From positions 54,587 to 118,586 of the IMG/VR virus record IMGVR_UViG_3300036823_000117: a DNA stretch of 64,000 bases. One strand, given 5' to 3'. The position numbers were made by a program, and so were the translations under genes. The DNA comes from a virus. This document shows positions 26,581 through 57,397 of the stretch, piece by piece. The notes beneath the pieces are model-generated. The model saw only the letters and a program-made list of their open reading frames with translations, ran no database searches and had not been told where the DNA came from. Numbering within the stretch: the stretch's first letter is position 1; each line of letters begins with the position of its first letter.

Positions 26581-28248
26581 TCAGCCCGTGGCGGGAAGAT
26601 CCCAAGGCCAGGTGGCGTCGCGGCCGGCCTCTGTGACGGGGATGATCCGGAAGGCGGCATCGGTCAGGCCGCCCAGCGTGACCCGCGTCCCGGACCCTGA
26701 CGGGGTAGCCCCGGCCGAGTAGCCGCCGAAGTTCCACATGTACAGCGGGACACTCGCCGGGACCAGGTCGTCGATCAGCGTTTCCTGCATGCCGCCGTTG
26801 CGCCACATGTTGGACGGCAGGTAGCCGGCCCGGGTCTGCTCGTCGGTGACGATCACGACACGAGTGTGCTCGGGCCGCAGGTGCGTCTTGACCGCGAGCG
26901 GGATGTCTGTGCCGCCGGGCGCCGGCTGGTAGCTGAACCGCTCGACGATCTTCAGCACGGACTCCGCGGCCGTGAACTTCACCGGCCGGGATTTCCCCCA
27001 GAATTCCACCAGGTCGGAGTGCTCGGCCCGCCGCGCGATGGCCGCGCCGAAGATGGCCGCGCCGTCCGCCCAGGGCATGTCGGAATGCTCGGAGAACTTC
27101 TGATCCCACATCGACGGCGACCGGTCCACCAGCACCAGGGTCCGGCCGCGGAGCGCGGGCACGTTGGCCAGGGACAGGTTCAGCGCCTTCTCCAGCGGAT
27201 GCCCCCACCGCAGCGACGGCGCAGCGCGGTAAGCCGACAGGAACCGGAACGGGAACTGGCGTGACCGCGCGACGTGGTCCGGGTCCGCGAGCATGGCCGC
27301 GACCTGCTCGACCACGTCATCGGGAACGCCGGCGTCGTCCAGGTTCCGCAGGTTGCGAAGGCGTGCCATGTAGCTCATCGATGGCAGGATCGCCGTCCAC
27401 GCCGCCGCGTCCATCGGCCCCTGCAGCCAGCCCGACATCGACTCCCATGTCATCCCGGCCTCGTGCAGCTGCTCGCTGGCGGCGGGCTCGCTGATCAAAA
27501 TCCGCCGGGCGGCAACAGGCAGCGCCATCAGCGCGGCCTGCCAGCGCAGCGTCTCCAGCACCTCCGGGATCTCGTTGTCCCGCCCGTGGCGCCGCTCGAT
27601 CGCGTGCCGGTACAGGGCGTCTCGCCACGTCCCGTAGGCGTTGCCGTGGTACCGGGGCTGAACGAGCTCGATCACGTCACCGAACCGGACCGCCGCCTCG
27701 GCCGTGTCCCACTTCAGCAGGGCCCGCTCGTTGTACAGACGGTTCACCGCGTCAGCGACACCGCGCTTGAAGCCGATCGGCATCTTCCGGCCGTACCGCG
27801 CCAGCCAGTACGCGATGATCTCGCCCGGCTCATCGGCGCGCTGCAGCACCGAGTCGACGACCTTGCGGACCGGCACGCCCGGGTTGCTGACCTCACGGCC
27901 CGTGCCAGCCTCATCGCGACGCGCCCACGCGTACTCCGCCGCGGCCTCGACGGGCGCGAGCCTCAGGTTCCCCGGCCCCCGCATCCACGCCAGCAGGCCC
28001 GCGGTCCAGTCCGGGTGGACAGCTGACGCCTCGCGGACCAGGCCCCGGAACCGGCTCACCCGCGCGTCGGTGCCCTCGTGGAACGCCTTCTCGCCTGGCA
28101 GGTTGCACGCGGCCAGGAGAAACAGCTCCGACTGCAGGTCGCGGGTGTAACCCTGCGCGCCCAGCGCGGTCCGGGCTACGGGCGACGCCGTGCTGACCAC
28201 GGGCGTGCGCGTCGGAGCCTTGACGGATCCCCGGTTGTTTCTGCTCAT
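26581..28248 (-). CDS. rsr: Ro60/TROVE-domain RNA-binding protein with vWA domain
   Basis: LQRADEPGE, MARLRNLRN, SRQFPFRFLSAY, LVLVDRSPSM (MIDAS-like) and VVIVTDEQ; ATG 28248 after GGAGGG. Confidence 0.92.
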   Translation of the reverse strand: MSRNNRGSVKAPTRTPVVSTASPVARTALGAQGYTRDLQSELFLLAACNLPGEKAFHEGTDARVSRFRGLVREASAVHPDWTAGLLAWMRGPGNLRLAPVEAAAEYAWARRDEAGTGREVSNPGVPVRKVVDSVLQRADEPGEIIAYWLARYGRKMPIGFKRGVADAVNRLYNERALLKWDTAEAAVRFGDVIELVQPRYHGNAYGTWRDALYRHAIERRHGRDNEIPEVLETLRWQAALMALPVAARRILISEPAASEQLHEAGMTWESMSGWLQGPMDAAAWTAILPSMSYMARLRNLRNLDDAGVPDDVVEQVAAMLADPDHVARSRQFPFRFLSAYRAAPSLRWGHPLEKALNLSLANVPALRGRTLVLVDRSPSMWDQKFSEHSDMPWADGAAIFGAAIARRAEHSDLVEFWGKSRPVKFTAAESVLKIVERFSYQPAPGGTDIPLAVKTHLRPEHTRVVIVTDEQTRAGYLPSNMWRNGGMQETLIDDLVPASVPLYMWNFGGYSAGATPSGSGTRVTLGGLTDAAFRIIPVTEAGRDATWPWDLPATG

Positions 28249-28293
28249 CTCGACCCTCCAGATGGAGGGGAGGGAAGACTTCAGCGTGACCGC

Positions 28294-28375
28294 GCCCGAC
28301 AACGAGTCGGACTAGGCGACATGCGCCTTAAGCGCACCTATAGCCAAGGAAGTAGCCCAATCCTGCACTTCGGGC
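28294..28375 (-). ncRNA. Y RNA-like element 1
   Basis: Terminal stem GCCCGA/UCGGGC, inner stem GGAUUGGGC/GCCUAGUCC; directly upstream of TROVE gene. Confidence 0.7.
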
Positions 28376-29035: not shown

Positions 29036-30514
29036 ATGGCCGACCAGCAACTCGACGCCGTCGACTACAGCCGCGTCAGTGACGACAGCAAGCGCCGCGA
29101 CGCCCGTTCGGTCACCGAGCAGGCCAAGGACAACCTCGCCGACATCCGCAGGAATGGCTGGCGGCACGCCGACTCCTACTCCGACAACGACGTCTCCGCC
29201 TCGAGGTTCGGCACGCAGGAGCGGCCCGACTGGAACCGCCTGCGCGCCGACCTCGACAACGACTCCAAGGTGTTCGATGTAATCGTCCTCTGGGAAACCA
29301 GCCGCGGTGACCGCACCGCCGACACATGGCTCCAGTTCCTGTCGGCCTGCCGCAAGCGCGGCACCCTGATCCACGTCACGAGCCACAGCACCACCTACGA
29401 CGTCCGCAAGCCCCGCCAGTGGAAGATCCTCGCCACCGACGGCATCGACAACGCCTACGCCAGCGAAGAGACATCCCTCCGCGTCAAGCGCGACATGAAG
29501 GCCTCCGCCGAGGCCGGCCGCCCTCACGGCTCGGCACCCTACGGCTACCGCCGCGTCTACGATGCCGAGACCGGCGTCATGGAAACCCAGGTCCCCGAGG
29601 AGCCAGCCGCCGGGATCGTCCGGGAGATCATCAGCCGCGTCGCCGAAGGCGAAGCGGTTTCCGCGATCACCAAGAGCCTCAACCGTCGCGGCATCCCGTC
29701 CCCCCGCGGAAAGCAGTGGGCCTGCTACCCGGTCCGGCGCATAGCCACCAACCGCGCGTACATCGCCCAGCGGATCTGGCCGGGCGAGAGAGCACCCCTT
29801 CCCGGGATCTGGGAACCCATCATCGACCCGCCGGACGTCTTCTGGGACGCGCAGGCCGTCCTCGAAGCCCGCCACAACCCGGCCACCCGCAGCGGCCGCG
29901 CCAGCCACCTCCTGTCCTGGCTCGCCATCTGCGGCAAATGCGGCCAGCGTCTCGTTTACAAGGGCAACGCCCGCGGGCCGGCTTCCCGCGGCACCGCAGT
30001 CCGGCCCGTCTACTCCTGCCCGGCCGGCTGCGCAGCGATGATCGCCGAATGGCTCGACACCTACGTCACCACGCGCATCATCACCCGCCTCTCCCATCCC
30101 GACCTGTTCGGCCAGCTCACAGCCGGCGGCAACGACGAAGCCGCCCATGCCCGCGCCACTGCAGCCGAGCTCCGGAGCCGCCACGCCGAAGCTGCCCAGT
30201 CGGCCGCCAGGGGAACGCTGTCTATCACCGCCCTTGAAGCCATCGAGAACGTGCTGCTCCCCGATATCGAAGCCGCCGACCGGAAGGTCGCTGCGCTGAC
30301 CGTTCCCCCGCTCATCCGGGGCATCGTCGGCCATCCCCGCGACCAGGTCGCCGAAGAGTGGGCCGGGATGCCCATAGCGGCACAGCGCGACATCAGCCGC
30401 GTCCTCCTCGAGCACATCAAGCTCATGCCTGCCGTCGGCGCCGCCCGCAGCGGCCACGCATTCGACCCCGACCGGATCCAGATGCGGTGGACAGGCGACG
30501 ATGAAGACTCCTGA
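29036..30514 (+). CDS. int: large serine integrase
   Basis: YSRVS catalytic motif, SASRF, ERPDW, SRGDR, recombinase domain, CGKCG zinc ribbon. Confidence 0.93.
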   Translation: MADQQLDAVDYSRVSDDSKRRDARSVTEQAKDNLADIRRNGWRHADSYSDNDVSASRFGTQERPDWNRLRADLDNDSKVFDVIVLWETSRGDRTADTWLQFLSACRKRGTLIHVTSHSTTYDVRKPRQWKILATDGIDNAYASEETSLRVKRDMKASAEAGRPHGSAPYGYRRVYDAETGVMETQVPEEPAAGIVREIISRVAEGEAVSAITKSLNRRGIPSPRGKQWACYPVRRIATNRAYIAQRIWPGERAPLPGIWEPIIDPPDVFWDAQAVLEARHNPATRSGRASHLLSWLAICGKCGQRLVYKGNARGPASRGTAVRPVYSCPAGCAAMIAEWLDTYVTTRIITRLSHPDLFGQLTAGGNDEAAHARATAAELRSRHAEAAQSAARGTLSITALEAIENVLLPDIEAADRKVAALTVPPLIRGIVGHPRDQVAEEWAGMPIAAQRDISRVLLEHIKLMPAVGAARSGHAFDPDRIQMRWTGDDEDS

Positions 30515-31688: not shown

Positions 31689-31795
31689 GCAGATCTCCCC
31701 TCGTTGCGACGCCTCCGGAGACAGGGTACGCGGGGTGACCAACCGGTTGCAGAAAGGGTTCACAAGGTCGCTACGGATACTGCATAATGCTAGTT

Positions 31796-32116
31796 ATGAG
31801 ACTCACGCCGGAGCACGAGTGGTGGCTGATCGCGAACAGGCACTACGGGGTCCACGTCGCATGGGGCCGCTCGGCTGCCGAGGCCAAGGCTGACGTGCGC
31901 GACCGCATCGCTGAAACCTACGCCGGCGAAGGCCTGTCACCGAGCGCCTGCCGGCGGGCGGCATCCAGCTACGGAGTCTTCGCCATGGCTGGCCCCGTTA
32001 CCGAGAAGGAAGCGCAGGCGGCGCACGACGCTTGGTTCCGCGAGGACTGGCAGCCGGCGATGGCGCTGGCTCGCCGGACGGGAACCCGCTTCGGCCGATC
32101 CGGGAAGGCTGCATGA
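31796..32116 (+). CDS. hypothetical protein, paralog of 42370-42714
   Basis: WWLIANR..GVHVA.GR..AKA.VRDRI.ETY.GEGLS..RRAASSYGVF shared. Confidence 0.65.
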   Translation: MRLTPEHEWWLIANRHYGVHVAWGRSAAEAKADVRDRIAETYAGEGLSPSACRRAASSYGVFAMAGPVTEKEAQAAHDAWFREDWQPAMALARRTGTRFGRSGKAA

Positions 32117-32511
32117 CCGACCAGCGGTGGTGGATCTGCGACCTGGCTGACGAGACGTCACCCGGCGGCCACCTGTACGAAGCGCCGAACGCCAGGAGTG
32201 CCCTGGCCAAGTTCCGCGCGGACATGGTCGAGCATTACCTGGCCGCCGCTACGTCCCGGACGCACGCCAGGGACATCGTGCGGGCGAACCGGCCGAGGGT
32301 CTACGGCGGTCCGCTCACTGCCGCCGAGGCTTTCGAGCACGAGTTGGGGTGGGCGTGGGCATGGGAGATGTGCAGCCCGAAGTACCGCAGCGACGTCTAC
32401 TGCAGCCCGGATGGCCGGGCCACCCGCGATGAGGCCGTGATGATCCTCGGCGAGAGGATCACGGCGCTGATGGAGCGTCAGGCCGGCGACGTCTACGGAC
32501 TCTCGGCATGA
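32113..32511 (+). CDS. hypothetical protein
   Basis: ATGA-coupled on both sides. Confidence 0.55.
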   Translation: MTDQRWWICDLADETSPGGHLYEAPNARSALAKFRADMVEHYLAAATSRTHARDIVRANRPRVYGGPLTAAEAFEHELGWAWAWEMCSPKYRSDVYCSPDGRATRDEAVMILGERITALMERQAGDVYGLSA

Positions 32512-33488
32512 CGGCGCTCGAGCCGGTCCTCGCGGGCACTATCGTCGCGCGGCCGCCAACTCTCTCGGTCCGCGATGTCGACGCATCCCGGTGGGGCGAG
32601 CCCGAGATGCTTCACCACGCCGTCGACATCTGGCTCGACGCGCAGCTGTCGGTCCACACCAAGGCCGCCTACTGCCGCGAGTTCGGCTACTGGATCGAAT
32701 GGTGCACCGAGAACGGGGTCCCGGCCGCTGACCCACGTGGTCCCGACGTCGATGCCTGGCGCAAGACCTTCACCGGCCTGTCCCCCGCGACCGTCAACCG
32801 GCGGCTCAGCACCGTGTCCAGCTTCTACACCTACTGGACTGAGGAAGACGTCCTGACCCGCAACCCGGTCGCCCATGTCAAGCGACCCAAGGTGTCCGCC
32901 AAGCCCGTCAGCATCTACCTCAGCAAGCCCCAGGCCACCCAACTCGTCGCCTACACCGACAGCCTCGACGACCCGCGGCCGGGCGTGATCTGCCGGCTCC
33001 TCGCACAGACCGGTATGCGCGTCGGCGAGCTCACCGCCGCCACCGTCCCCGACCTGGCCATGTCCGGCGGCCACCACATCATTGAGATCACCCGCAAGGG
33101 CGGCAACCGCCAGCAGCTCGTCATCGTCCCCGGCACCTACCAGCGGACCGTCGACTACCTCGACGGCCGTACCTCGGGATACATCCTGGCCGTCGCGCGC
33201 ACCGAACGGCGGGCCGCCGACGGCCAGATGGACCGCTCGTACGTCCGGCAGCTGCTGCGCCGCATCGCCCGCGAAGCCGGACTACCGGAAGCCGTCTGGC
33301 AGCGGATGCACCCGCACGTCCTGCGCCACTCAGTCGCCACGCTCCTCGCCGCCGACAAGGTCCCCGTCCACGAGATCCAGGAGTTCCTCGGCCACGCGTC
33401 CCTGCAGACCACACAGCGGTACATCCACCACGCCCAGGAACTCGACGACAGCCCCGCCTACCGCATGCAGAAGATCCTCGCCGGCTAG
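32508..33488 (+). CDS. tyrosine recombinase (XerC/D-like)
   Basis: TGMRVGEL, RKGG, HVLRHS, LGHASLQTTQRY catalytic residues. Confidence 0.93.
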   Translation: MTALEPVLAGTIVARPPTLSVRDVDASRWGEPEMLHHAVDIWLDAQLSVHTKAAYCREFGYWIEWCTENGVPAADPRGPDVDAWRKTFTGLSPATVNRRLSTVSSFYTYWTEEDVLTRNPVAHVKRPKVSAKPVSIYLSKPQATQLVAYTDSLDDPRPGVICRLLAQTGMRVGELTAATVPDLAMSGGHHIIEITRKGGNRQQLVIVPGTYQRTVDYLDGRTSGYILAVARTERRAADGQMDRSYVRQLLRRIAREAGLPEAVWQRMHPHVLRHSVATLLAADKVPVHEIQEFLGHASLQTTQRYIHHAQELDDSPAYRMQKILAG

Positions 33489-33882: not shown

Positions 33883-33913
33883 GGGTCTCGTCCTCGGCCG
33901 GCTAGGGCCATCG

Positions 33914-33988
<75 letters not shown>

Positions 33989-34038
33989 ATCAGAAGACTA
34001 CCGCACGTGACTGTCAGCCGGCTAGCTTCCTGGCCGGC

Positions 34039-34491
34039 TCAGCGTCCGTCACGGCGGGTGTACGTGATGTAGGCGTGAATGGTGCCGTTGCCCTCGAAGC
34101 TCACCGGGGAGATCTCCGCTGACGGCCAGCAGTTGCCCGCCCGCGACCATGCTTGCGGGATGAGCCGGGTGTAGGCCGGCCACGCTTTGAACTTGCCGCT
34201 CTCATCCGACGAGTTGCTGCCGTTGTTGCACAGGTCGTCCCAGTCGGCTTCGATGCGGCCGCGGCCTTCCCCAGGGATCGTGATCGTCCCCCAGGCGTGG
34301 ACGCGGATGCTGGCCGGGTCGCCGATCAGCTGGCCGCCGATGTTGCAGATCGGGTAGCCGCCTGTGGCGTGGCAGGCCCCGAGGTAGTGAACCTTCGCGG
34401 CCGCGGGAGTTGCGGCGTGCGCCGGGAAGGCGGCCACGGCAGCAAGGCCGAGGCCGCTTACTGCGGCTGCGGCCAGCCGGGTAAGGAACAT
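34039..34491 (-). CDS. secreted protein
   Basis: Signal peptide ending PAHA; four Cys. Confidence 0.65.
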   Translation of the reverse strand: MFLTRLAAAAVSGLGLAAVAAFPAHAATPAAAKVHYLGACHATGGYPICNIGGQLIGDPASIRVHAWGTITIPGEGRGRIEADWDDLCNNGSNSSDESGKFKAWPAYTRLIPQAWSRAGNCWPSAEISPVSFEGNGTIHAYITYTRRDGR

Positions 34492-34540
34492 GCTGGCCAC
34501 GGTATCGGCCACAACGGTTACTCCGCAGCGGGAAACGCAC

Positions 34541-34616
34541 TGGCTGCCCAGCCCGGACTCGAACCGGGGCACGCCCCTTAGGAGGAGGCAGCTCTATCCA
34601 CCTGAGCTACAGGGCA
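34541..34616 (-). tRNA. tRNA-Arg(CCT)
   Basis: Loop CT-CCT-AA; encoded CCA. Confidence 0.85.
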
Positions 34617-34617
34617 T

Positions 34618-34691
34618 TGGAGGCCGCGGCGGGAATCGGACCCGCGTGAGACGCTTTGCAGGCGCCCACCTAGCCGCTCGGTCACGCGACC
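34618..34691 (-). tRNA. tRNA-Cys(GCA)
   Basis: Loop CT-GCA-AA; T loop TCCGATT; encoded CCA. Confidence 0.85.
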
Positions 34692-34695
34692 CGGG

Positions 34696-34767
34696 TGCTC
34701 CCAACAGGAATCGAACCTGTGTTGCCAGCTTCGGAGGCTGGTGTCCTATCCCCTAGACGACAGGAGC
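34696..34767 (-). tRNA. tRNA-Arg(CCG)
   Basis: Loop CT-CCG-AA. Confidence 0.88.
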
Positions 34768-34833
34768 ATGATCATGGACAGGGACCTGGGCCCCGGCCCG
34801 GGTGTGTGTGCCCGGCTTACGCCCTGTCCTCCG

Positions 34834-34914
34834 TGCGCCGTGATGGATTCGAACCACCGTGTCCGTAGATCGCGGTTTACAGCCGCGCGCATTCGCCCAC
34901 TCTGCCAACGACGC
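34834..34914 (-). tRNA. tRNA-Tyr(GTA)
   Basis: Loop CT-GTA-AA; long variable region. Confidence 0.85.
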
Positions 34915-35003
34915 CTAGCCCGGAGTCTTTGAGTCCCGCCTGCTCGCGAACAGGCTCTCCGGATCACCCGTGCATGCTCGGGTGCTGGCCATGCCAGGGA
35001 ACA

Positions 35004-35077
35004 TGGGGAGGACAGCGGGAATCCAACCCGCGTGACCGGGTTCACAACCCGGCGCTCTAGCACTGAGCTATATCCTC
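35004..35077 (-). tRNA. tRNA-His(GTG)
   Basis: Loop TT-GTG-AA; C73; T loop TTGGATT; no encoded G-1. Confidence 0.82.
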
Positions 35078-35079
35078 AG

Positions 35080-35151
35080 TAGCCGCTGGAGGTACCGATC
35101 CTCCGGCCCCCGATGTGTGAGATCGGTGCTCCGCCATTGAGCTAAGCGGCC
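35080..35151 (-). tRNA. tRNA-Val(CAC)
   Basis: Loop CT-CAC-AC; atypical T loop ATCGGTA. Confidence 0.78.
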
Positions 35152-35152
35152 G

Positions 35153-35224
35153 TGCGCCCAGGAGGACTCGAACCTCCATTGCCGACTTCGTAGGCCGGCG
35201 TCCTATCCGTTGAACGATAGGCGC
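35153..35224 (-). tRNA. tRNA-Arg(ACG)
   Basis: Loop CT-ACG-AA. Confidence 0.88.
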
Positions 35225-35225
35225 T

Positions 35226-35300
35226 TGGTAGTCGCTCGAGGTGCTGACCCTCGGACCTTCCGCTAGTCGGGCGGATGCTCTGCCGCTGAGCTAAGCGACC
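35226..35300 (-). tRNA. tRNA-Val(GAC)
   Basis: Loop CC-GAC-TA; atypical T loop GTCAGCA; encoded CCA. Confidence 0.75.
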
Positions 35301-35377
35301 AGGTGGGCTGCCCCGGCAACTCGGACCGCACGTCTGCGTGTCCTGCTACCGAGGGCAGCCCTTTTCTTAGAGTTGAG

Positions 35378-35450
35378 CGAGACCGACGAGATTTGAACTC
35401 GCGCTGTCACCTTGACAGGGTGATGTGCTAACCGCTGACACTACGGCCCC
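35378..35450 (-). tRNA. tRNA-Asp(GTC)
   Basis: Loop CT-GTC-AA; G73. Confidence 0.88.
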
Positions 35451-35512
35451 ATTCCACCGGACTTGACGTTGCCCTGACCACCGTCAGGGTCGAGGCGCCG
35501 GCGTTGCCTTCG

Positions 35513-35583
35513 CTCCCCCACCTGGACTCGAACCAAGATCCACCGGTTAACGGCCGGCCGCTCTGCCCTTAAGCTATGAGGGA
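35513..35583 (-). tRNA. tRNA-Asn(GTT)
   Basis: Loop CC-GTT-AA; G73. Confidence 0.85.
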
Positions 35584-35738
35584 TTGGACCTGCGAAAATG
35601 TCAGACCGCATCCATATACTTAGCGGATGCAAGTCACCGAACTAGAATGCGGGCATTGCCAGAATCTCGTGGCGCTGGACAAGCGGTGCCATTGGGAGTT
35701 CGACCACGGCTACCTGCTCCTGGTCGATGGGCGCTTCG

Positions 35739-35811
35739 TCGCGGGGAAGGGACTCGAACCCTCGACCTGCGGGTTATGAGCCCGCCGCGCTACCAACTGC
35801 GCCACCCCGCA
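35739..35811 (-). tRNA. tRNA-Met(CAT), initiator-like
   Basis: Loop CT-CAT-AA; GGG/CCC anticodon stem. Confidence 0.88.
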
Positions 35812-35812
35812 G

Positions 35813-35883
35813 TAGCCCCACAGGGACTCGAACCCTGTCTCGCGGGTCGAAGGTCCGCGGTCCTACCCATAGACGATGGGGCC
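35813..35883 (-). tRNA. tRNA-Glu(TTC)
   Basis: Loop CC-TTC-GA. Confidence 0.82.
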
Positions 35884-35896
35884 TTGCTGTCCTGCG

Positions 35897-35967
35897 TACC
35901 CAGTAGGGGTGTCGAACCCCTGCTGCCGGGCTGAGAACCCGGCGGTCTGCCGTTAACCTAACTGGGC
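35897..35967 (-). tRNA. tRNA-Glu(CTC)
   Basis: Loop TT-CTC-AG. Confidence 0.85.
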
Positions 35968-35972
35968 TAGAG

Positions 35973-36045
35973 CGCGTCGACCAGGAATCGAACCCAGATC
36001 CACCGCTTAGAAGGCGGCCGTGCTTGTCCGTTGCACCACCGACGC
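35973..36045 (-). tRNA. tRNA-Arg(TCT)
   Basis: Loop CT-TCT-AA. Confidence 0.85.
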
Positions 36046-36046
36046 G

Positions 36047-36117
36047 TGCCTCGCCAAGGTACCGACCCCTGTTCCATCGGGTAAAAGCCGATTGCATCAC
36101 CTTAATGCTTGCGAGGC
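36047..36117 (-). tRNA. tRNA-Lys(TTT)
   Basis: Loop CT-TTT-AC; A8; atypical T loop GTCGGTA. Confidence 0.75.
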
Positions 36118-36118
36118 G

Positions 36119-36192
36119 TAGCCCACCAGGGGATTGAACCCTGCATCTCCTGCTTATAAGGCAGGCTCCGTCAACCAGGCGGATCGTGGGCG
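36119..36192 (-). tRNA. tRNA-Ile(TAT)
   Basis: Stem CCTGC/GCAGG, loop CT-TAT-AA. Confidence 0.78.
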
Positions 36193-36193
36193 T

Positions 36194-36270
36194 TGGTAGG
36201 TCACCAGAGAATCGGACTCTGCATCACCGCGTTATCAGCGCGGCCTCTCCAACCAGGCGAGACGTGACCA
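36194..36270 (-). tRNA. tRNA-Ile(GAT)
   Basis: Loop CT-GAT-AA; T loop TCCGATT; encoded CCA. Confidence 0.8.
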
Positions 36271-36271
36271 G

Positions 36272-36364
36272 CGGAAGTGGTGAGGGTCGAACTCACAAGG
36301 CGACTCGCGCCGCTCGGCTGTTTTCGGGACAGCTGCCGTCAGCCTCTCATCGGCTTGCACTTCC
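36272..36364 (-). tRNA. tRNA-Ser(CGA)
   Basis: Loop CC-CGA-AA; long variable arm; G73. Confidence 0.82.
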
Positions 36365-36368
36365 ATCG

Positions 36369-36453
36369 CGGAGGACGGACTATTCGAAAGCCACGTCTTG
36401 CGACGCGCATCCGCTAGCAACGGAGCCCGGCTCGCCTGTCCGGTTCATCCTCC
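36369..36453 (-). tRNA. tRNA-Ser(GCT)
   Basis: Loop TT-GCT-AG; long variable arm. Confidence 0.78.
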
Positions 36454-36454
36454 A

Positions 36455-36537
36455 TGGTGCGCTCGGAGGGATTCGAACCCTCATGCCCGTAGGCTCCGGG
36501 TCTGAGCCGGATGCGTCAGCCGTTGCGCCACGAGCGC
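36455..36537 (-). tRNA. tRNA-Leu(CAG)
   Basis: Loop CT-CAG-AC; variable arm; encoded CCA. Confidence 0.88.
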
Positions 36538-36540
36538 GTG

Positions 36541-36756
36541 ACGGGGAGTCCCTGGAGCGCAAGTACCGAGCCGTGCGGTGCCAGCCGACGGCATTTCATC
36601 GCTCTCCCTGACTGCGCCGGCCGCTGCACTGGCACTATCTCGCGGCCGTACGATCCGGGACTTGATCCCCGGGGCGCGTGCACGCGCCCGCTTGTCGCCG
36701 CACGTATTAGTTCCGGGGATTCCCTTCCGGTGACCCGGTACCGTGCGGCAGTAAAA
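36541..36756 (-). ncRNA. unknown ~215-nt structured RNA with two potential pseudoknots
   Basis: Stems GCCGCACG/CGUGCGGC and CGGCCGC/GCGGCCG; enclosed GUACCGGG and GUGCCAG complementary to distal CUCGGUAC and CUGGCAC. Confidence 0.55.
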
Positions 36757-36757
36757 C

Positions 36758-36831
36758 GGGGAGTGCTCTGCCTGGCTGAGCTACACCGGGCCTTGGCCCG
36801 GCGACCGGATTTGAACCGGCGACCTCTCCCC
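36758..36831 (-). ncRNA. circularly permuted, anticodon-less tRNA-like module A (YrlA-like)
   Basis: 5'-3' order: GGGAG, T arm (GGTTCAAATCC), closed acceptor hairpin, D arm (TAGCTCAG..GAGC), ACTCCC. Confidence 0.8.
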
Positions 36832-36833
36832 CG

Positions 36834-36905
36834 AGCGGAAGACGGGATTCGAACCCGCGACCCTTACCTTGGCAAGGTAATGCTCTACCGCTGAGCCACC
36901 TCCGC
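36834..36905 (-). tRNA. tRNA-Gly(GCC)
   Basis: Loop TT-GCC-AA; U73. Confidence 0.9.
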
Positions 36906-36986
36906 ATGAGCCGGGTTCCAATCTGATGCCTAGGGTTTCCCCAGTGGTATAGCGGCTACAGTCACCCGACAAACCTCTACCGTACG

Positions 36987-37059
36987 AGCCACCGTTCGGT
37001 TTCGAACCGAACACCTTCTGCCTACCATGCAGACGCTCTGCCAACTGAGCTACGGCGGC
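36987..37059 (-). tRNA. tRNA-Thr(GGT)
   Basis: Loop AT-GGT-AG. Confidence 0.85.
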
Positions 37060-37069
37060 GTGATTATCG

Positions 37070-37142
37070 CTGGCGGCCCAGGATTCGGACCTGGACTGGC
37101 GGGGCCAAAACCCGCAGGGCTGCCTGGTTACCCCAGCCGCCA
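37070..37142 (-). tRNA. tRNA-Gln(TTG)
   Basis: Loop TT-TTG-GC; U1-A72, G73; T loop TCCGAAT. Confidence 0.82.
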
Positions 37143-37147
37143 TCGTG

Positions 37148-37220
37148 AGCCCGCTAGAGGTCTCGAACCCCTCGCCTGCCCTTTACAGGAGGGCCGCTCT
37201 ACCAGCTGAGCTAAGCGGGC
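37148..37220 (-). tRNA. tRNA-Thr(TGT)
   Basis: Loop CC-TGT-AA. Confidence 0.85.
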
Positions 37221-37226
37221 AAGTCT

Positions 37227-37295
37227 CCCACCGGCCGCAGGACTCGAACCCTGCGTGTCTGCCGACGACGCCGGCCGTCGCTGCGTTACCGGTGG
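37227..37295 (-). ncRNA. tRNA-like RNA with anticodon arm reduced to a tetraloop hairpin
   Basis: Acceptor CCACCGG/CCGGTGG, D stem ACGC/GCGT, GTC-GGCA-GAC in place of the anticodon arm, T arm GCAGG-GTTCGAGT-CCTGC. Confidence 0.6.
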
Positions 37296-37299
37296 TTCG

Positions 37300-37373
37300 T
37301 GTCCACGGTGGGATTCGAACCCACACTGTCCAGCCCCTCATGCTGGCGCCTCCTGCCGTTGGGCTACGTAGAC
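37300..37373 (-). tRNA. tRNA-Leu(GAG), short variable loop
   Basis: Loop AT-GAG-GG; A73. Confidence 0.82.
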
Positions 37374-37482
37374 ATGGCGCGCGAGACAGGGCATGGACCC
37401 GTCAGCACGATAATGGCGCTTGCGCCTCCCCCATGCCGTCATGGGCGCTACGCCGCTGAGCCGCGAGTATCCCCGCAGCCAG

Positions 37483-37555
37483 AGCCTCCGACTGGCCTCG
37501 AACCAGTTGCCTTCCGCTTACGGGGCGGACGCTCTGCCAGGTGAGCTACAGAGGC
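37483..37555 (-). tRNA. tRNA-Thr(CGT)
   Basis: Loop CC-CGT-AA. Confidence 0.85.
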
Positions 37556-37698
37556 ATGGGAAGTTCTGGCCAGCCAAGGTCAACCCATCCGTCCCAGCCG
37601 GTCACGCCTGACAGCGTTGCCCCGGCCCAGACGTCGTACCACTCGGCATCCAGATCATCCATGACAGGGCCAGACGTCGCACCGCCTGGTCTTGTCCG

Positions 37699-37769
37699 CT
37701 GGGAACCCTGGATTCGAACCAGAACCGACGGAGCCAGAGTCCGCCGTGCTGCCGTTACACCAGCTCCCA
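37699..37769 (-). tRNA. tRNA-Gln(CTG)
   Basis: Loop CT-CTG-GC; U1-A72, G73. Confidence 0.88.
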
Positions 37770-37774
37770 TTGAG

Positions 37775-37849
37775 TACGGGCGGGGAGAGTCGAACTCCCA
37801 AGCAACCCGTTTTGAGCGGGCCAGGTCTGCCAGTTCCCGTCACGCCCGC
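37775..37849 (-). tRNA. tRNA-Leu(CAA), short variable loop
   Basis: Loop CT-CAA-AA; A73. Confidence 0.82.
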
Positions 37850-37854
37850 TCGAG

Positions 37855-37927
37855 TGCGTCGCCTCGGCCTCGAACCGAGAGCCCGCGGAGTAAGAGTCCG
37901 CTGCACGTCCACTTGTGCTTGCGACGC
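37855..37927 (-). tRNA. tRNA-Lys(CTT)
   Basis: Loop CT-CTT-AC; A8. Confidence 0.82.
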
Positions 37928-37931
37928 ATAG

Positions 37932-38002
37932 AGCTCCACCGGGGAATCGAACCCCGCTCGTCAGCTTGGAAGGCTGACACATCACCACAATGCTTGTGGA
38001 GC
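37932..38002 (-). tRNA. tRNA-Gly(TCC)
   Basis: Loop CT-TCC-AA; U73. Confidence 0.85.
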
Positions 38003-38003
38003 G

Positions 38004-38077
38004 TGGCGATGGACATCGGACTCGAACCGAGACTGCCCCACTTATGGAGGGGCGTGCTGCCAGTTACACTATCCATC
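38004..38077 (-). tRNA. tRNA of uncertain identity (anticodon CAT or ATA), possibly pseudo
   Basis: D and T arms and CCA present; anticodon arm GCCCC-TCCATAAGT-GGGGC is irregular. Confidence 0.55.
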
Positions 38078-38130
38078 TGACGCCGGGAGCGACCCGCCGT
38101 CCAGGAGCTGGCTGATCAGGCCGTGCTCCG

Positions 38131-38203
38131 TGCCTGCCGCTGGAATCGAACCAGCCACCCCCGCCTTTTCAGAGCGGTGCTCTACCGGATGAGCTAGACA
38201 GAC
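38131..38203 (-). tRNA. tRNA-Phe(GAA)
   Basis: Loop CT-GAA-AA. Confidence 0.88.
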
Positions 38204-38288
38204 TTATGCAGGGGTTCTCCGGCTTGCGCCTGCCCAGGAGGACCGCGGCCCGAAGTCCGCGCGCCCTACCCTGCTCCTGGTCTCCGAG

Positions 38289-38360
38289 TCGGGATACAAG
38301 GACTCGGACCTTGTCTGCCTGGTCCCAAACCAGGCGCGCTGACCCTTACGCGATATCCCG
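38289..38360 (-). tRNA. tRNA-Pro(TGG)
   Basis: Loop TT-TGG-GA; C1-G72, A73; T loop TCCGAGT. Confidence 0.85.
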
Positions 38361-38365
38361 TTCAC

Positions 38366-38442
38366 GGGGAGTGCTCTACCAGCTGAGCTACCGGACGCCC
38401 CTTGGGGCGCCCAGGCCGGACTTGAACCGGCGACCTCTCCCC
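38366..38442 (-). ncRNA. circularly permuted, anticodon-less tRNA-like module B (YrlA-like)
   Basis: GGGGAG-AGGTC-GCCGGTTCAAGTCCGGC-CTGGGCGCCCCAAGGGGCGTCCGG-TAGCTCAGCTGGTAGAGC-ACTCCCC. Confidence 0.8.
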
Positions 38443-38445
38443 TCG

Positions 38446-38518
38446 TGGAGCACCGGGGACTCGAACCCCGCACATCCTGCTTGCAAAACAGGTGCTCTAC
38501 CTGATGAGCTAGCGCCCC
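38446..38518 (-). tRNA. tRNA-Ala(TGC)
   Basis: Loop TT-TGC-AA; G3-U70. Confidence 0.9.
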
Positions 38519-38610
38519 ATTGCCCGGTCCCGGCCAGCCCGCGGCGTACCGCGAGCCGGCCAGGACCGGAGTCTTACTGCGCGGCCCTGGCTCGGCCGCG
38601 CTGCGTTTCC

Positions 38611-38631
38611 CGCTGTGGATTTGTCAATGCA
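38611..38631 (-). promoter_or_regulatory. boxA-like antitermination element
   Basis: TGCATTGACAAATCCACAGCG resembles, from memory, the actinobacterial rrn leader boxA region. Confidence 0.45.
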
Positions 38632-38662
38632 CAGACCCATTGCCCCGGAGGGTCGGGTACCG

Positions 38663-38733
38663 CTGGGCCAGAGGGATTCGGACCCCCATCGCCGGTTTTG
38701 GAGACCGGAGCTCTGCCGTTGAGCTATGTCCCA
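38663..38733 (-). tRNA. tRNA-Trp(CCA)
   Basis: Loop CT-CCA-AA; G73; T loop TCCGAAT. Confidence 0.85.
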
Positions 38734-41644: not shown

Positions 41645-41715
41645 CGTGCTGATTGTTTCGTGGCTGGTGGTGCGGCGGGCGCGCAGCGGGCGGTTCCCGG
41701 TGCGCGCCCGGTGTG

Positions 41716-41829
41716 TTACACCATGAGCCACCAGTGTGCGGGCTGGCCTACCCAGTCTGCTTGCTGGTCGGGGCGTGGTCCGTTGCCGTTGGAGAAGCTG
41801 CGGGTGTCGGGTTGCTGCGCGGGGGGCAT
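41716..41829 (-). CDS. 37-aa small ORF
   Basis: AGGGAG RBS and upstream TACAAT; MPPAQQPDTRSFSNGNGPRPDQQADWVGQPAHWWLMV. Confidence 0.4.
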   Translation of the reverse strand: MPPAQQPDTRSFSNGNGPRPDQQADWVGQPAHWWLMV

Positions 41830-41955
41830 GGTTTTCTCCCTGGGTTGTCGGTCTTTGTGCCAGATTGTAGGCCGATTCCCGTGATTGTGCGAGTGAAACT
41901 TTCATGCCGTTTTTCGAGTGCCTTTTAGCGCGCATTTCACTTCCGGGCGGGGCAT

Positions 41956-41983
41956 TTGAAAACGTTGCCACGGTGCGCATAAT
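41956..41983 (+). promoter_or_regulatory. sigma70-type promoter of the peptide gene
   Basis: TTGAAA-16-CATAAT in an AT-richer intergenic region. Confidence 0.55.
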
Positions 41984-42009
41984 GGCGGGAAACGAGACTT
42001 GGAGGAACA

Positions 42010-42150
42010 ATGTTCAAGGTTCGGGCTGTCATCGTTTCCGCTTTCCTGGCCGTCGGCCTTCCTCTTGGCGTGGTGGCATCCATCGCGACCACGAGTGCCG
42101 TCCCGCAGGCTTCCGGGCAGGTGGCGCCCCTCTACTTCGTGCACGGGTAA
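42010..42150 (+). CDS. 46-aa secreted pre-pro-peptide (candidate signalling peptide)
   Basis: GGAGG RBS; MFKVRAVIVSAFLAVGLPLGVVASIATTSAVPQASGQVAPLYFVHG. Confidence 0.7.
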   Translation: MFKVRAVIVSAFLAVGLPLGVVASIATTSAVPQASGQVAPLYFVHG

Positions 42151-42369
42151 GACCTCCGGGCTTCCCTGGCCCGCACGTTCTCCAGGTGGTGGAAGTGCCA
42201 CAGCTGGCGGTCGGCGTCTGACTTGCGCAGCCCGGAGCTGACCATGCACTCGCACCTGGTGAAGCCGTCCGGGCCGTCAGCGGGGACGTCTTCCACGCCC
42301 TGCGAGCGGTAGGGCCTGCCGTCGTCCTGGAGGGCGTGGCCGGGGATGCCGGCGTCTGGCAGGGGCAGG

Positions 42370-42714
42370 TCAGGCACCGGACGCCTCTGGGTACTCATCT
42401 GCGATCTTGCGTGACCATCGGGACCGGTAGCGGCGTGCCAGCCGGATGACAGGCTGTGAGTCGTCCAGGTCCCACGCCTGTCGCGCTTCCCGGGCTTCAT
42501 CGCAGCCGAGGCCGCCGGCGATGACAAAGACGCCGTAGCTCGATGCGGCCCGCCGTGCGGCGGAGGCGGACAGTCCCTCGCCCAGGTAGGTCTCCGTGAT
42601 GCGGTCACGGACCTCGGCCTTGGCATCAGGCCCGGTGCGGCCCAGCGCGACATGGACTCCGAACATCCTGTTGCCGATCAGCCACCAGGTCTCAGAGGGC
42701 CTGCGGCTAGGCAC
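42370..42714 (-). CDS. hypothetical protein, paralog of 31796-32116
   Basis: High amino-acid similarity by eye; AGGAGG RBS. Confidence 0.65.
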   Translation of the reverse strand: MPSRRPSETWWLIGNRMFGVHVALGRTGPDAKAEVRDRITETYLGEGLSASAARRAASSYGVFVIAGGLGCDEAREARQAWDLDDSQPVIRLARRYRSRWSRKIADEYPEASGA

Positions 42715-43056
42715 CGGGAACCTCCTCCTTGCCGCGGGCGTGGCGTGGCGGCCCGGCGTGCGCCCTGTGCTGCCGCCGGTCCCGGACCACCATGACCTGC
42801 ACCATCGTGATCGTGGCCGGCCACATCAGGGCCAGCAGCAGGAAGAACACGGCCACCTTGCCGGGGGCGACGTCTCGGAGGCCGGCGAAGCCGCTGCGGA
42901 CGCTGGCCCACTCGGCGCGGGTGCCGCACTCGGGGCAGTCCCTCGATGGCGTGTCCATCTCGCCGCGGTCCATGCTCCGGACGGCCCACATCGCCAGGGT
43001 CAGGACCAGGCAGGCGGGGATCAGGTAGAGGCCCAGGGCGATGGCGGCCGGCCCGC

Positions 43057-43485
43057 TCACTGCCGCTCTCCTTCCGGGCCGGGAACCGCGAGGGGCTCGG
43101 CCAGCTCGGCGGCCAGACTCAGCAAGTCGTCCGCATGACACGCCTTGCCAATCGCGCACCAGCACGCCAGGTCCCGCCCGCCCAGGTCCGCGGCCATGCT
43201 CATCATCAGTCCGGGCTGCTCGATGATCCACCAGGAGAACGCGGACACCACGTCCTCAGCGCGGAGCATGGCCACGCGGGCCAGCCCTGATGCGCCGCCG
43301 GGGACGGTGCGGGCCACGAAGGGCCACAGGGGGCTGTCCCGGTCTACGGGCTCCTTCACCTTGAAGGGGTTGGCGTAGGGGCTGGCTGGCAGCCCCGGGG
43401 CCGCCCGGCCGACATAGACCGCGCCGTCAGGAACGCGCCCGTGGAACAGGTCGCCCTGGACGCGCACGCGGCGCGGGCTAAGCAT
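43057..43485 (-). CDS. DUF4326-family protein
   Basis: AVYVGR, YANPF, LGGRDLACWC, CHADDL. Confidence 0.8.
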   Translation of the reverse strand: MLSPRRVRVQGDLFHGRVPDGAVYVGRAAPGLPASPYANPFKVKEPVDRDSPLWPFVARTVPGGASGLARVAMLRAEDVVSAFSWWIIEQPGLMMSMAADLGGRDLACWCAIGKACHADDLLSLAAELAEPLAVPGPEGERQ

Positions 43486-56857: not shown

Positions 56858-57397
56858 TCACGACGCCTCCTCGAACAGGGTTAGCGGGGGCTGTTCCCCC
56901 GGCTCGGATGGTCGTGACGCCGTCGTCCAGGCGCGGGCGTCCTGGTTGCAGATGCGCTCCCAGAGGCCGCGTTCGACACCGTCTGCGCCGCGGTCCTCGC
57001 GCGGCCGGCCGGGCATGTCCCAGCCGGGGCGGGCCTTCCGCTTAGCCACCTCAACGAACCCGGCCGCGCGAAGAGACGCGCCGCTCTCTTTGTCCAGGTT
57101 GTAGGTGATGACGCGGTAGTACCCCGAGCCCTTGCACGTCCGGGCCGCAGCGCCGTAGAGCAGCGACGACGCGTTCCGGGTTCCGTCGGTCGCGACCCGC
57201 GTGATCTCCAGCGTCAGCCCGTCGTCGAAATGCCGGGCGACCGGCCGACCCGTGAGCGCTACGCCGCGGAGAATGTCCTGGTCGTCGGCTACCGCGTGCC
57301 GGAAGATGCTGCGCAGGGGGGGCGCTAGGTGCCGGTGCCACACGGTCACGAACTCGCAGGCGGCATCCCAGGAGACCGGCACAATGCGGAGGCTCAC
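56858..57397 (-). CDS. XF1762-family (Mom-like GNAT fold) protein
   Basis: FVTVWHRH, GRPVAR, LEITRVATDG, ESGASLRAAG. Confidence 0.8.
   Translation of the reverse strand: MSLRIVPVSWDAACEFVTVWHRHLAPPLRSIFRHAVADDQDILRGVALTGRPVARHFDDGLTLEITRVATDGTRNASSLLYGAAARTCKGSGYYRVITYNLDKESGASLRAAGFVEVAKRKARPGWDMPGRPREDRGADGVERGLWERICNQDARAWTTASRPSEPGEQPPLTLFEEAS

What the first reader, a model, noticed from the sequence alone, without database searches (positions are those of the whole stretch)
42010..42150. Arbitrium/Phr-like secreted signalling peptide in an actinophage
Seen: a lone + strand 46-aa gene with its own promoter and GGAGG RBS: basic N-terminus, hydrophobic core, polar linker, then VA-PLYFVHG-stop. 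Established: Bacillus AimP, Phr and PapR precursors are 40-50 aa with a signal peptide, and AimP releases a short C-terminal peptide. Inference: a phage communication peptide, perhaps (P)LYFVHG, outside Firmicutes. No TPR/RRNPP receptor is visible in this window, so the receptor is elsewhere, host-encoded or of a new type.
Basis: partly seen in the sequence, partly recalled or inferred. Interest (0 to 1): 0.78.

Follow-up and report, generated by a model that had tools for sequence, protein, structure and literature searches.

The report
Actinophage secreted peptide ending in YFVHG
A soil phage of high-GC actinobacteria carries a tiny, separately promoted gene for an exported peptide whose tail motif (Y-F/L-x-H-G) also occurs, in two or three copies, in small exported peptides of other such phages, so it may be a peptide signal, but no receptor or function is known.

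Summary
The 46-codon ORF at 42010-42150(+) is exactly as described. It has GGAGG 4 nt before the ATG. One of only 2 near-consensus sigma-70-type promoters in the 118.6-kb phage genome lies 27 nt upstream. Codon usage fits a gene.

An exhaustive HMMER search found one true homologue, P0003 (68 aa, 56% identity). It keeps the signal-peptide-like N-terminus and VPQAS, and carries the tail motif P-x-Y-F-x-H-G/A twice.

This scan had already noted, on other DNA, an actinophage precursor with 3x YLYHG (e1-5971109, e1-5971117). I fetched it (P0005). Its relative P0006 has 3x YLLHG. So one motif class, Y-[LF]-x-H-[GA], usually with Pro at -2, occurs in 1, 2 or 3 copies in otherwise unrelated phages.

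The RRNPP/arbitrium reading fails on the receptor. There is no adjacent receptor and no TPR protein anywhere in the genome, and the two phages share no receptor-like gene.

Best reading: a Sec-exported pro-peptide whose C-terminal motif is the active unit. A diffusible signal is plausible (about 0.3) but untested. An envelope-acting "moron" product is nearly as likely. Expression, export and function have not been shown.

The parts
41830..42009 (.). Lower-GC divergent intergenic region between the leftward 37-aa ORF (start at 41829) and the peptide gene
   Evidence: GC about 0.45-0.6 in all three phases; sequence
41956..41983 (+). Sigma-70-type promoter TTGAAA-16-CATAAT (10 of 12 matches)
   Evidence: 1 found, 0.0 expected; one of only 2 such sites in 118.6 kb, both strands. 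No second copy of its 20-nt partial palindrome was found in the genome.
42001..42005 (+). GGAGG ribosome-binding site, 4 nt before the ATG
   Evidence: read directly
42010..42150 (+). 46-aa pro-peptide gene (P0001), stop codon included
   Evidence: Homologue P0003 at E 3.5e-7 and 56% identity.
42010..42087 (+). Residues 1-26: Sec-type signal-peptide-like segment (MFKVR, hydrophobic core, GLPLG, VVA and SIA small-x-A sites)
   Evidence: Sequence. AF2 helix 2-29 with pLDDT about 91. [ASG]-I-A is also present in P0003 and P0005. Cleavage is inferred; no signal-peptide predictor was available.
42088..42126 (+). Residues 27-39: polar linker TTSAVPQASGQVA, with VPQAS conserved in P0003
   Evidence: Low-confidence, unstructured in AF2.
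42127..42147 (+). Residues 40-46: PLYFVHG, the conserved P-x-Y-[FL]-x-H-[GA] motif at the extreme C-terminus
42132..42398 (-). Convergent 88-aa gene. Its last 19 nt (42132-42150) overlap the last codons and the stop of the peptide gene.
   Evidence: third-position GC 0.9 or more at 42140-42330. No Pfam, PHROG or PADLOC family.

Best explanation
The ORF is a real, independently transcribed phage gene. A host-type promoter and a strong RBS drive a 46-aa pro-peptide.

Proposed mechanism:
1. The N-terminal 23-26 residues act as a Sec signal peptide and are removed at VVA|S or SIA|T.
2. This leaves a 20-23-residue unstructured peptide outside the membrane.
3. Its functional unit is the C-terminal motif P-L-Y-F-V-H-G, probably trimmed further by host extracellular proteases to a short peptide ending in YFVHG.
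4. That peptide acts as a diffusible ligand for a target that is not encoded beside it and is not shared with the other motif-bearing phage. The target is therefore most likely host-encoded (oligopeptide import plus a cytoplasmic regulator, or a membrane sensor). The peptide would report phage or lysogen density or manipulate the host.

Shown: the ORF, promoter and RBS; the homologue; motif conservation and copy-number variation.
Inferred: export, cleavage, trimming, ligand role, receptor.

My odds: gene real 0.9; exported 0.75; motif is the functional unit 0.7; diffusible signal 0.3.
For: Promoter and RBS.

Coding-like codon usage, best of six frames.

Homologue: of 1.84 billion representatives, the only non-self, non-repeat hit is P0003 (E 3.5e-7). 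The parts after residue 23 are similar on their own (0 of 2000 shuffles reach the score), so the match is not just hydrophobic composition.

Duplication: P0003 carries the module twice (TPDYFYHA and GPGYFYHA). The internal repeat is significant (0 of 2000 shuffles).

Unrelated phage G001: its 73-aa P0005 has a Sec-like signal followed by GPAYLYHGK, SSAYLYHGK and SPDYLYHG-stop. Its relative P0006 (72% identity) has YLLHG in all three copies. This is a concerted change of the variable third position.

Motif statistics: Pro is at -2 in 7 of 9 motif copies. P0001, P0005 and P0006 all end exactly in HG-stop. By composition, the chance of Y[LF].H[GA] at a given position is 1.4e-5, and the motif occurs only twice in all six frames of G000.

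Structure: AF2 gives one N-terminal helix and a tail without a confident fold.

Precedent: tandemly duplicated pheromone propeptides exist in Bacillus phages (PMC11343458, abstract read).
Against: No receptor:
- Neighbours are 37, 118, 88 and 114 aa and match no Pfam family at E<=0.01.
- No TPR_12, RNPP_C or DUF5753 in six frames of the 97%-complete genome.
- 31 of 35 ORFs of 250 aa or more were Pfam-scanned without a TPR.

Position: the gene is not in the immunity region. HTH_31-like genes lie at genome 7.5-8.1 kb, whereas the peptide gene is at 96.6 kb.

G000 and G001 share only three regions (ParB-like, a secreted-protein-like gene, an unknown 147-aa protein), none receptor-like.

The link to P0005/P0006 is at motif level only: BLASTP E 0.003, and hhalign matches 8 columns with probability 5.8%.

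In P0003 the motif is not at the very C-terminus and ends in HA.

This peptide has a single copy of the motif.

The hydrophobic stretch (21 residues) is long enough to be a membrane anchor.

The family is tiny: three sequences in two 90% clusters, plus P0005 and P0006.

No terminator lies after the gene. No expression data exist.
Confidence: 0.35

Rival explanations
1. A 'moron'-type envelope effector rather than a signal. The peptide is exported, or stays anchored by its N-terminal helix. It acts locally on a host envelope protein, for example in superinfection exclusion, receptor masking, or modulation of a sensor or transporter. The YFxHG tail would be the binding epitope.
For: - It is a lone gene on the opposite strand at the junction of two leftward operons, with its own host-type promoter.
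- Its GC (63.8%) is below the genome's 68.9%.
- The hydrophobic stretch is 21 residues, and AF2 gives a helix at 2-29.
- There is no receptor or regulator nearby.
- The N-terminal segment is at least as conserved as the tail (16 of 26 against 9 of 20 identities).
Against: Tandem repetition of a 5-7-residue motif separated by variable linkers, and the concerted change in all three copies between P0005 and P0006, are more typical of precursors cut into short peptides than of a single binding epitope. In P0005 the first motif starts 2 residues after the predicted A-I-A cleavage site, which makes sense only if the signal peptide is removed.
Confidence: 0.3
2. Precursor of a modified peptide (RiPP-like), with Tyr and His cross-linked as in P450-made biarylitides. 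Host enzymes would do the modification.
For: The Tyr...His aromatic motif recalls the Tyr-x-His cores of biarylitides, which are made by dedicated P450s from five-residue precursors (the start of each abstract of PMC12002111 and PMC13417212, seen in the listing).
Against: - No P450 in six frames of the genome.
- The spacing here is Y-x-x-H, not Y-x-H.
- Per those abstracts, biarylitide precursors are five residues long. This protein is 46 aa with a signal-peptide-like N-terminus, which is not that architecture.
- The neighbours match no Pfam, PHROG or PADLOC family, so no maturase was recognised beside the gene.
Confidence: 0.04
3. Small membrane toxin or lysis-type peptide (type I toxin-like), kept in check by antisense transcription from the convergent gene.
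For: It is a short hydrophobic peptide. There is a 19-nt convergent overlap with the 88-aa gene. No terminator lies after the ORF.
Against: The tail is polar and uncharged and carries a conserved, repeatable motif, unlike the tails I recall for such toxins. No antisense promoter or structured antisense RNA was found. The strong constitutive-type promoter and strong RBS argue against a tightly silenced toxin.
Confidence: 0.05
4. Not a functional gene: a chance ORF downstream of a promoter that really makes an antisense or regulatory RNA against the convergent leftward operon.
For: About 7% of small non-coding ORFs reach its codon score. There is no terminator, so transcripts would run antisense into the 42132-... 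operon. There are no expression data.
Against: A 56%-identical intact ORF exists in independent assemblies, with conserved start, VPQAS and tail motif. GGAGG is correctly placed. The frame is the best of six.
Confidence: 0.07

Closest known systems
Arbitrium AimP-AimR-AimX of Bacillus SPbeta-like phages (RRNPP family)
   Same: A phage-encoded propeptide of about 45 aa with an N-terminal secretion signal and a short conserved C-terminal end. The phage carries recombinases and so is probably temperate.
   Different: - No adjacent or distant TPR receptor.
- No sequence similarity to any known family.
- Actinobacterial, not Bacillota, host lineage.
- Not in the immunity region.
- No aimX-like target identified.
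Tandemly duplicated Phr propeptides of Bacillus phages phi3T and phi105 (Rap-Phr; PMC11343458, abstract read)
   Same: Small exported precursors in which a short pheromone-sized motif can occur several times, separated by linkers. This is seen here in the relatives P0003 (2x), P0005 and P0006 (3x).
   Different: This peptide has one copy. There is no Rap-type receptor. The motif is aromatic with His and ends in Gly or Ala. Processing has not been shown.
3x YLYHG precursor of a 107-kb actinophage
   Same: Sec-like signal ending in x-I-A; motif P/S-x-Y-[LF]-x-H-G; the protein ends exactly in HG-stop; high-GC phage genome of about 110 kb.
   Different: - One copy against three.
- No alignable similarity outside the 8-residue motif.
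- The genomes share only 3 regions.
- P0005 sits between a tyrosine recombinase and XRE regulators (HTH_3; HTH_31+DUF5753), whereas ours sits between two early-type leftward operons, and the genome has no DUF5753.
Biarylitide RiPP precursors (P450-cross-linked Tyr-x-His)
   Same: A Tyr and a His close together in a very short active core.
   Different: No P450; Y-x-x-H spacing; a long precursor with a signal-peptide-like N-terminus.

Membership tests
RRNPP / arbitrium-type peptide quorum sensing (five criteria as listed in PMC10075063, passages read) | Propeptide is small (10-100 aa) | tested here: met
   46 aa
RRNPP / arbitrium-type peptide quorum sensing | Propeptide secreted via Sec (SignalP-type signal) or PptAB | tested here: inconclusive
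   n-region MFKVR, hydrophobic core, GLPLG breaker, V-V-A and S-I-A sites. AF2 helix 2-29. No signal-peptide predictor was available. A membrane anchor is not excluded.
RRNPP / arbitrium-type peptide quorum sensing | Receptor of 250-500 aa | tested here: not met
   The four nearest genes encode 37, 118, 88 and 114 aa
RRNPP / arbitrium-type peptide quorum sensing | Receptor carries TPR repeats | tested here: not met
   TPR_12 and RNPP_C: 0 matches at E<=1 in six frames of the genome. No TPR family in 50 Pfam-scanned proteins, including 31 of 35 ORFs of 250 aa or more. Ten of those large ORFs have no family at all.
RRNPP / arbitrium-type peptide quorum sensing | Propeptide and receptor genes directly adjacent | tested here: not met
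Tandemly duplicated Phr-type propeptides | Several copies of the putative mature peptide within one propeptide | tested here: not met
   One copy in P0001. Met only in the relatives: P0003/P0004 2 copies, P0005/P0006 3 copies.
Actinophage Y-[LF]-x-H-[GA] exported peptides (provisional class from this scan) | Sec-like signal followed by the motif, with Pro at -2, and the protein ending in H-G | tested here: met
   APLYFVHG-stop. Compare SPDYLYHG-stop (P0005) and NPAYLLHG-stop (P0006). Per-position chance 1.4e-5.
Actinophage Y-[LF]-x-H-[GA] exported peptides (provisional class) | Common descent with the YLYHG precursors | tested here: inconclusive
   Only the 8-residue motif aligns: BLASTP E 0.003; hhalign probability 5.8%, E 0.0066
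Actinophage Y-[LF]-x-H-[GA] exported peptides (provisional class) | Location in the lysogeny-control region beside XRE regulators | tested here: not met
   L004 has a Tyr recombinase, HTH_3 and HTH_31+DUF5753 beside P0005. Here the nearest recombinase is 8.5 kb away and there is no DUF5753.
Biarylitide / P450 RiPP | Dedicated cytochrome P450 next to the precursor | tested here: not met
   PF00067: 0 matches in six frames
Type I toxin-antitoxin | Antisense RNA overlapping the toxin mRNA; toxicity on expression | not testable with these tools
   Only a 19-nt convergent overlap with a protein gene is seen

The most novel reading that the evidence does not exclude
Y-[LF]-x-H-[GA] peptides are an undescribed peptide-signal family of soil actinophages. 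They are exported precursors with one to three copies of a pentapeptide whose third residue sets specificity (V, Y or L). They would be sensed by a non-RRNPP receptor, probably host-encoded. That would be phage (or phage-host) peptide communication in Actinomycetota, where peptide quorum sensing is not established.
Probability: 0.27. Interest if true: 0.85.

Novelty: new variant of a known kind. Interest (0 to 1): 0.6.

Why it matters
Peptide communication between phages is known only from Bacillota phages with RRNPP receptors. The introduction of PMC10075063 (passage read) states that signals in Actinomycetota are typically enzyme-made small molecules. A pentapeptide motif that recurs in exported mini-proteins of unrelated actinophages, with copy number 1-3 and a variable third residue, gives a concrete and cheap test: a synthetic peptide, LC-MS, and lysogeny or induction assays. 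That would show whether peptide signalling exists in this phylum's phages and would help find its receptor type. If the peptide is instead an envelope effector, it is an ordinary lysogenic-conversion-type gene.

Tried and rejected
Searches for more relatives found nothing further.
- Word-index searches: P0001 found only itself (1 of 1 candidates). The A1 profile found only P0001 and P0003 (2 of 4 candidates).
- tblastn of P0001 against phages gave 25 records, all E>=9, on Streptococcus satellite primase genes: chance.
- tblastn of P0003 against phages gave none. Against plasmids it gave 1 chance hit at E 5.
- The search for related loci with A1: 25 (viral) and 39 (genome) pattern stretches, none confirmed.
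- Back-translated GLPLGVVA-N21-VPQA pattern: 0 in viral, genome and metagenome contigs.
- YF.H[GA] x2 pattern in metagenomes: 109 stretches, of which 80 were returned. These held 99 matches, 68 of them in frame. I read only the open frames of 200 aa or less. All were tandem-repeat or non-genic frames without a start and signal peptide. The 29 stretches not returned and the frames over 200 aa were not inspected.
- P-x-YF-x-HG-stop pattern in viral contigs: 6 stretches, all in open frames of 8-24 codons.

Neighbour proteins (SLOG, 114 aa) have no relatives in viral contigs. The 2.5-kb region has only a 58-nt match, to one Gordonia phage (2 records).

The ESM Atlas gave a best score of 0.86 to unnamed clusters, which is below the level of a lead. 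PHROGs, PADLOC and Pfam gave nothing for the peptide. Rfam gave nothing on the ORF.

Sequencing runs: 4 DNA-type soil-metagenome runs were listed and no RNA holder was listed. When laid, only X1 (the possible source) covers 42021-42137, so there is no population variation and no expression information.

The promoter's partial palindrome has no second copy in the genome, so no operator family could be defined. No significant RNA structure or terminator lies after the ORF (z +1.0).

The biarylitide idea was rejected. A motif-word literature search (YLYHG, YFVHG, YFYHA, YLLHG) gave 6 papers, none relevant by title. Searches for arbitrium with Streptomyces or Actinobacteria, and for actinobacteriophage with secreted peptide and lysogeny, listed no report of peptide signalling in actinophages. 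Only listings were read, and supplements were closed and not consulted.

Complex prediction was not used because there was no defensible partner.

Full report
**1. What is there**

The window is the last 64 kb of a 118,586-bp virus record (G000). CheckV estimates it 97% complete, and its GC is 68.9%.

An in-frame TAA at 41980-41982 means ATG 42010 is the only possible start. GGAGG sits 4 nt upstream.

A sigma-70-type promoter, TTGAAA-16-CATAAT, lies at 41956-41983. In my scan of both strands of the whole genome only 2 sites reach 10 of 12 matches. This is one of them. The other precedes the tyrosine-recombinase operon at window 31759.

All neighbouring genes run leftward.
- On the left: a 37-aa ORF, a 118-aa ORF, a SLOG (YAcAr) protein, an AAA ATPase, a metallophosphoesterase, and then 34 tRNA genes.
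- On the right: 88-aa, 114-aa and about 117-aa (two-TM) genes, a DUF4326 gene and further genes.

The peptide gene therefore sits alone, on the opposite strand, at the junction of two leftward units. Its last 19 nt overlap the end of the convergent 88-aa gene.

**2. Is it a gene?**

GC by codon position (0.68/0.47/0.77) and a codon-usage score of 0.28 bit/codon fit coding. The 67 long ORFs score 0.40 +/- 0.19, and this frame is the best of six. About 7% of small shadow ORFs do as well, so this alone is weak.

The decisive evidence is a homologue. phmmer read all 1.84 billion representatives and returned 3 proteins at E<=0.001: the query itself, a 658-aa repeat protein matched in 5 stretches (composition artefact), and P0003 (68 aa, E 3.5e-7, 56% identity over residues 1-45). 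P0003 and its one-residue variant P0004 come from short assemblies of at most 1.5 kb.

After removing the first 23 residues, the two tails still align significantly (0 of 2000 shuffles reach the score). No RNA family or tRNA overlaps the ORF. I put the odds that this is a translated gene at about 0.9.

**3. The motif**

P0001 and P0003 share M-x-K-x-R-A, LA[VI]GLPLGVVA[SG]IA, VPQAS and P-x-Y-F-x-H-[GA]. In P0003 the linker-plus-motif module is present twice (TPDYFYHA ... GPGYFYHA; internal repeat 0 of 2000 shuffles).

A word search of this scan's earlier notes turned up a 107-kb actinophage with a secreted 3x YLYHG precursor. I treated that as a lead and tested it.
- A codon pattern for two YLYHG copies hit exactly one viral contig (L004).
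- There a 73-aa ORF (P0005) reads: Sec-like signal ...ALAIAG, then PAYLYHGK, SSAYLYHGK and SPDYLYHG-stop.
- Its only relative, P0006 (72% identity), has YLLHG in all three positions.

So there are four sequence types: YFVHG x1, YFYHA x2, YLYHG x3 and YLLHG x3. They share Y-[LF]-x-H-[GA]. Pro is at -2 in 7 of 9 copies. An x-I-A site ends the hydrophobic segment. In three of the four, H-G is the last two residues.

By the genome's amino-acid composition the motif has probability 1.4e-5 per position. It occurs twice in the 237,168 six-frame residues of G000, once here.

Outside the motif the two groups do not align (BLASTP E 0.003 over 11 residues; hhalign 8 columns, probability 5.8%). Common descent is therefore open, and convergence on the same short motif is possible.

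**4. Context and receptor**

The host lineage is actinobacterial. The phage's FtsK-like protein has its 12 best plasmid hits all in Actinomycetota, at 51-54% identity. The AAA ATPase is nearest to Microbacterium, Rhodococcus and Arthrobacter phage proteins, at 33-38%. The phage itself is deep-branching: its TerL is at most 28% identical to anything in the phage collection.

It carries a large serine recombinase and a tyrosine recombinase, so it is probably temperate.

No RRNPP-type receptor exists.
- The four flanking proteins have no family.
- TPR_12 and RNPP_C give no six-frame match.
- 31 of the 35 ORFs of 250 aa or more were Pfam-scanned without a TPR.
- The other four are TerL, the AAA ATPase and two tail-region giants (1,516 and 1,044 aa) that were not scanned.
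- Ten large ORFs have no family and could hide a new receptor type.

The cI/cro-like HTH genes lie at genome 7.5-8.1 kb, far from the peptide gene at 96.6 kb.

In G001, P0005 sits between a tyrosine recombinase, a Cro-like HTH_3 protein and an HTH_31+DUF5753 regulator. G000 has no DUF5753. Of 309 G001 ORFs, only three regions match G000 at E<=1e-3: a ParB-like gene, a secreted-protein-like gene, and an unknown 147-aa protein. None of 16 ORFs in the 6.4 kb around P0005 matches G000. If the motif has a common receptor, it is not a shared phage gene, so a host-encoded target is the simplest inference.

**5. Mechanism**

AF2 on the two-sequence alignment gives one helix (residues 2-29, pLDDT about 91) and a tail without a confident fold (pLDDT 56-62).

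A 20-23-residue polar tail cannot form a domain. Its conserved, repeatable 5-7-residue end must therefore act as a linear motif.

In P0005 the first motif begins two residues after the A-I-A site. That makes sense only if the signal peptide is cleaved. Internal copies there are followed by Lys, which is compatible with proteolytic release (inference).

Variable copy number, variable linkers and the concerted change at position 3 between P0005 and P0006 are the pattern described for multi-pheromone propeptides of Bacillus phages (PMC11343458, abstract).

I therefore favour an exported pro-peptide processed to a short YFVHG-ending ligand. Whether it is a diffusible signal (about 0.3) or a locally acting envelope effector of a moron-type gene (about 0.3) cannot be decided from sequence.

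Against the signal reading:
- There is no receptor.
- The gene is not in the immunity region.
- This peptide has a single motif copy.
- In P0003 the motif is followed by further residues.

**6. Comparison with known systems**

It works like AimP or Phr in architecture only. It fails three of the five RRNPP criteria listed in PMC10075063 (receptor size, TPR, adjacency), so it is not a member.

It is not a biarylitide-type RiPP: there is no P450, the spacing is wrong, and the precursor is long with a signal-peptide-like N-terminus.

The literature searches run (listings only) show no report of these motifs or of peptide signalling in actinophages.

**7. Verdict**

The finding gains weight because the tail motif is conserved, duplicated in the homologue, and shared with a precursor already noted by this scan in an unrelated phage. 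It stays untested at every functional step.

Interest 0.6. Novelty: a new variant of a known kind (phage-encoded exported signalling-type pro-peptide without an RRNPP receptor).

Noticed in passing
window 41676-41829 (-): A 37-aa ORF (41716-41829, with GGGAGAAAACC before its ATG) is followed at once by a strong GC hairpin (15-nt arms, 93% complementary, 5-nt loop; fold z -3.85). This lies ahead of the 118-aa/SLOG/AAA/metallophosphoesterase/tRNA unit. It could be a leader with attenuator, or a terminator without a U-tract.
   Followed up: partly
window 31759-33488 (+): The only other near-consensus sigma-70-type promoter in the genome (TTCACA-18-CATAAT) precedes a 159-aa ORF and a tyrosine recombinase. 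A large serine recombinase lies at 29036-30514. The phage thus has two recombinases of different classes.
   Followed up: partly
window 42245-42352: A stretch of about 108 nt inside the 88-aa gene occurs with 0-2 differences in contigs of other soil-metagenome runs (X2 and X3 in the rows listed), flanked by unlike sequence. In the possible source run it is a separate 102-nt contig at about twice the neighbouring depth. It looks like a short conserved or repeated segment shared between different elements.
   Followed up: no
window 42707-43060 (-): A protein of about 117 aa with two hydrophobic helices flanking a loop with CPECG (zinc-ribbon-like), two genes from the peptide gene. Earlier scan notes describe peptide + two-TM protein + regulator modules in other actinophage lineages. 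No similarity was tested.
   Followed up: no
window 56957-57397 (-) and G001 68639-69154 (+): An unknown 147-aa protein just downstream of the D12 adenine methyltransferase is 47.6% identical over 168 aa between two phages that share almost nothing else. It has no Pfam family.
   Followed up: partly
window 33913-38733 (-): 34 tRNA genes in one array downstream of the metallophosphoesterase-AAA-SLOG genes. A TROVE (Ro60-like) gene lies at 26581-28302.
   Followed up: partly
genome 42980-44491 (L003:6980-8491): The large terminase is at most 28% identical to any of 50,697 phage records. The phage lineage is very distant from cultured phages.
   Followed up: partly
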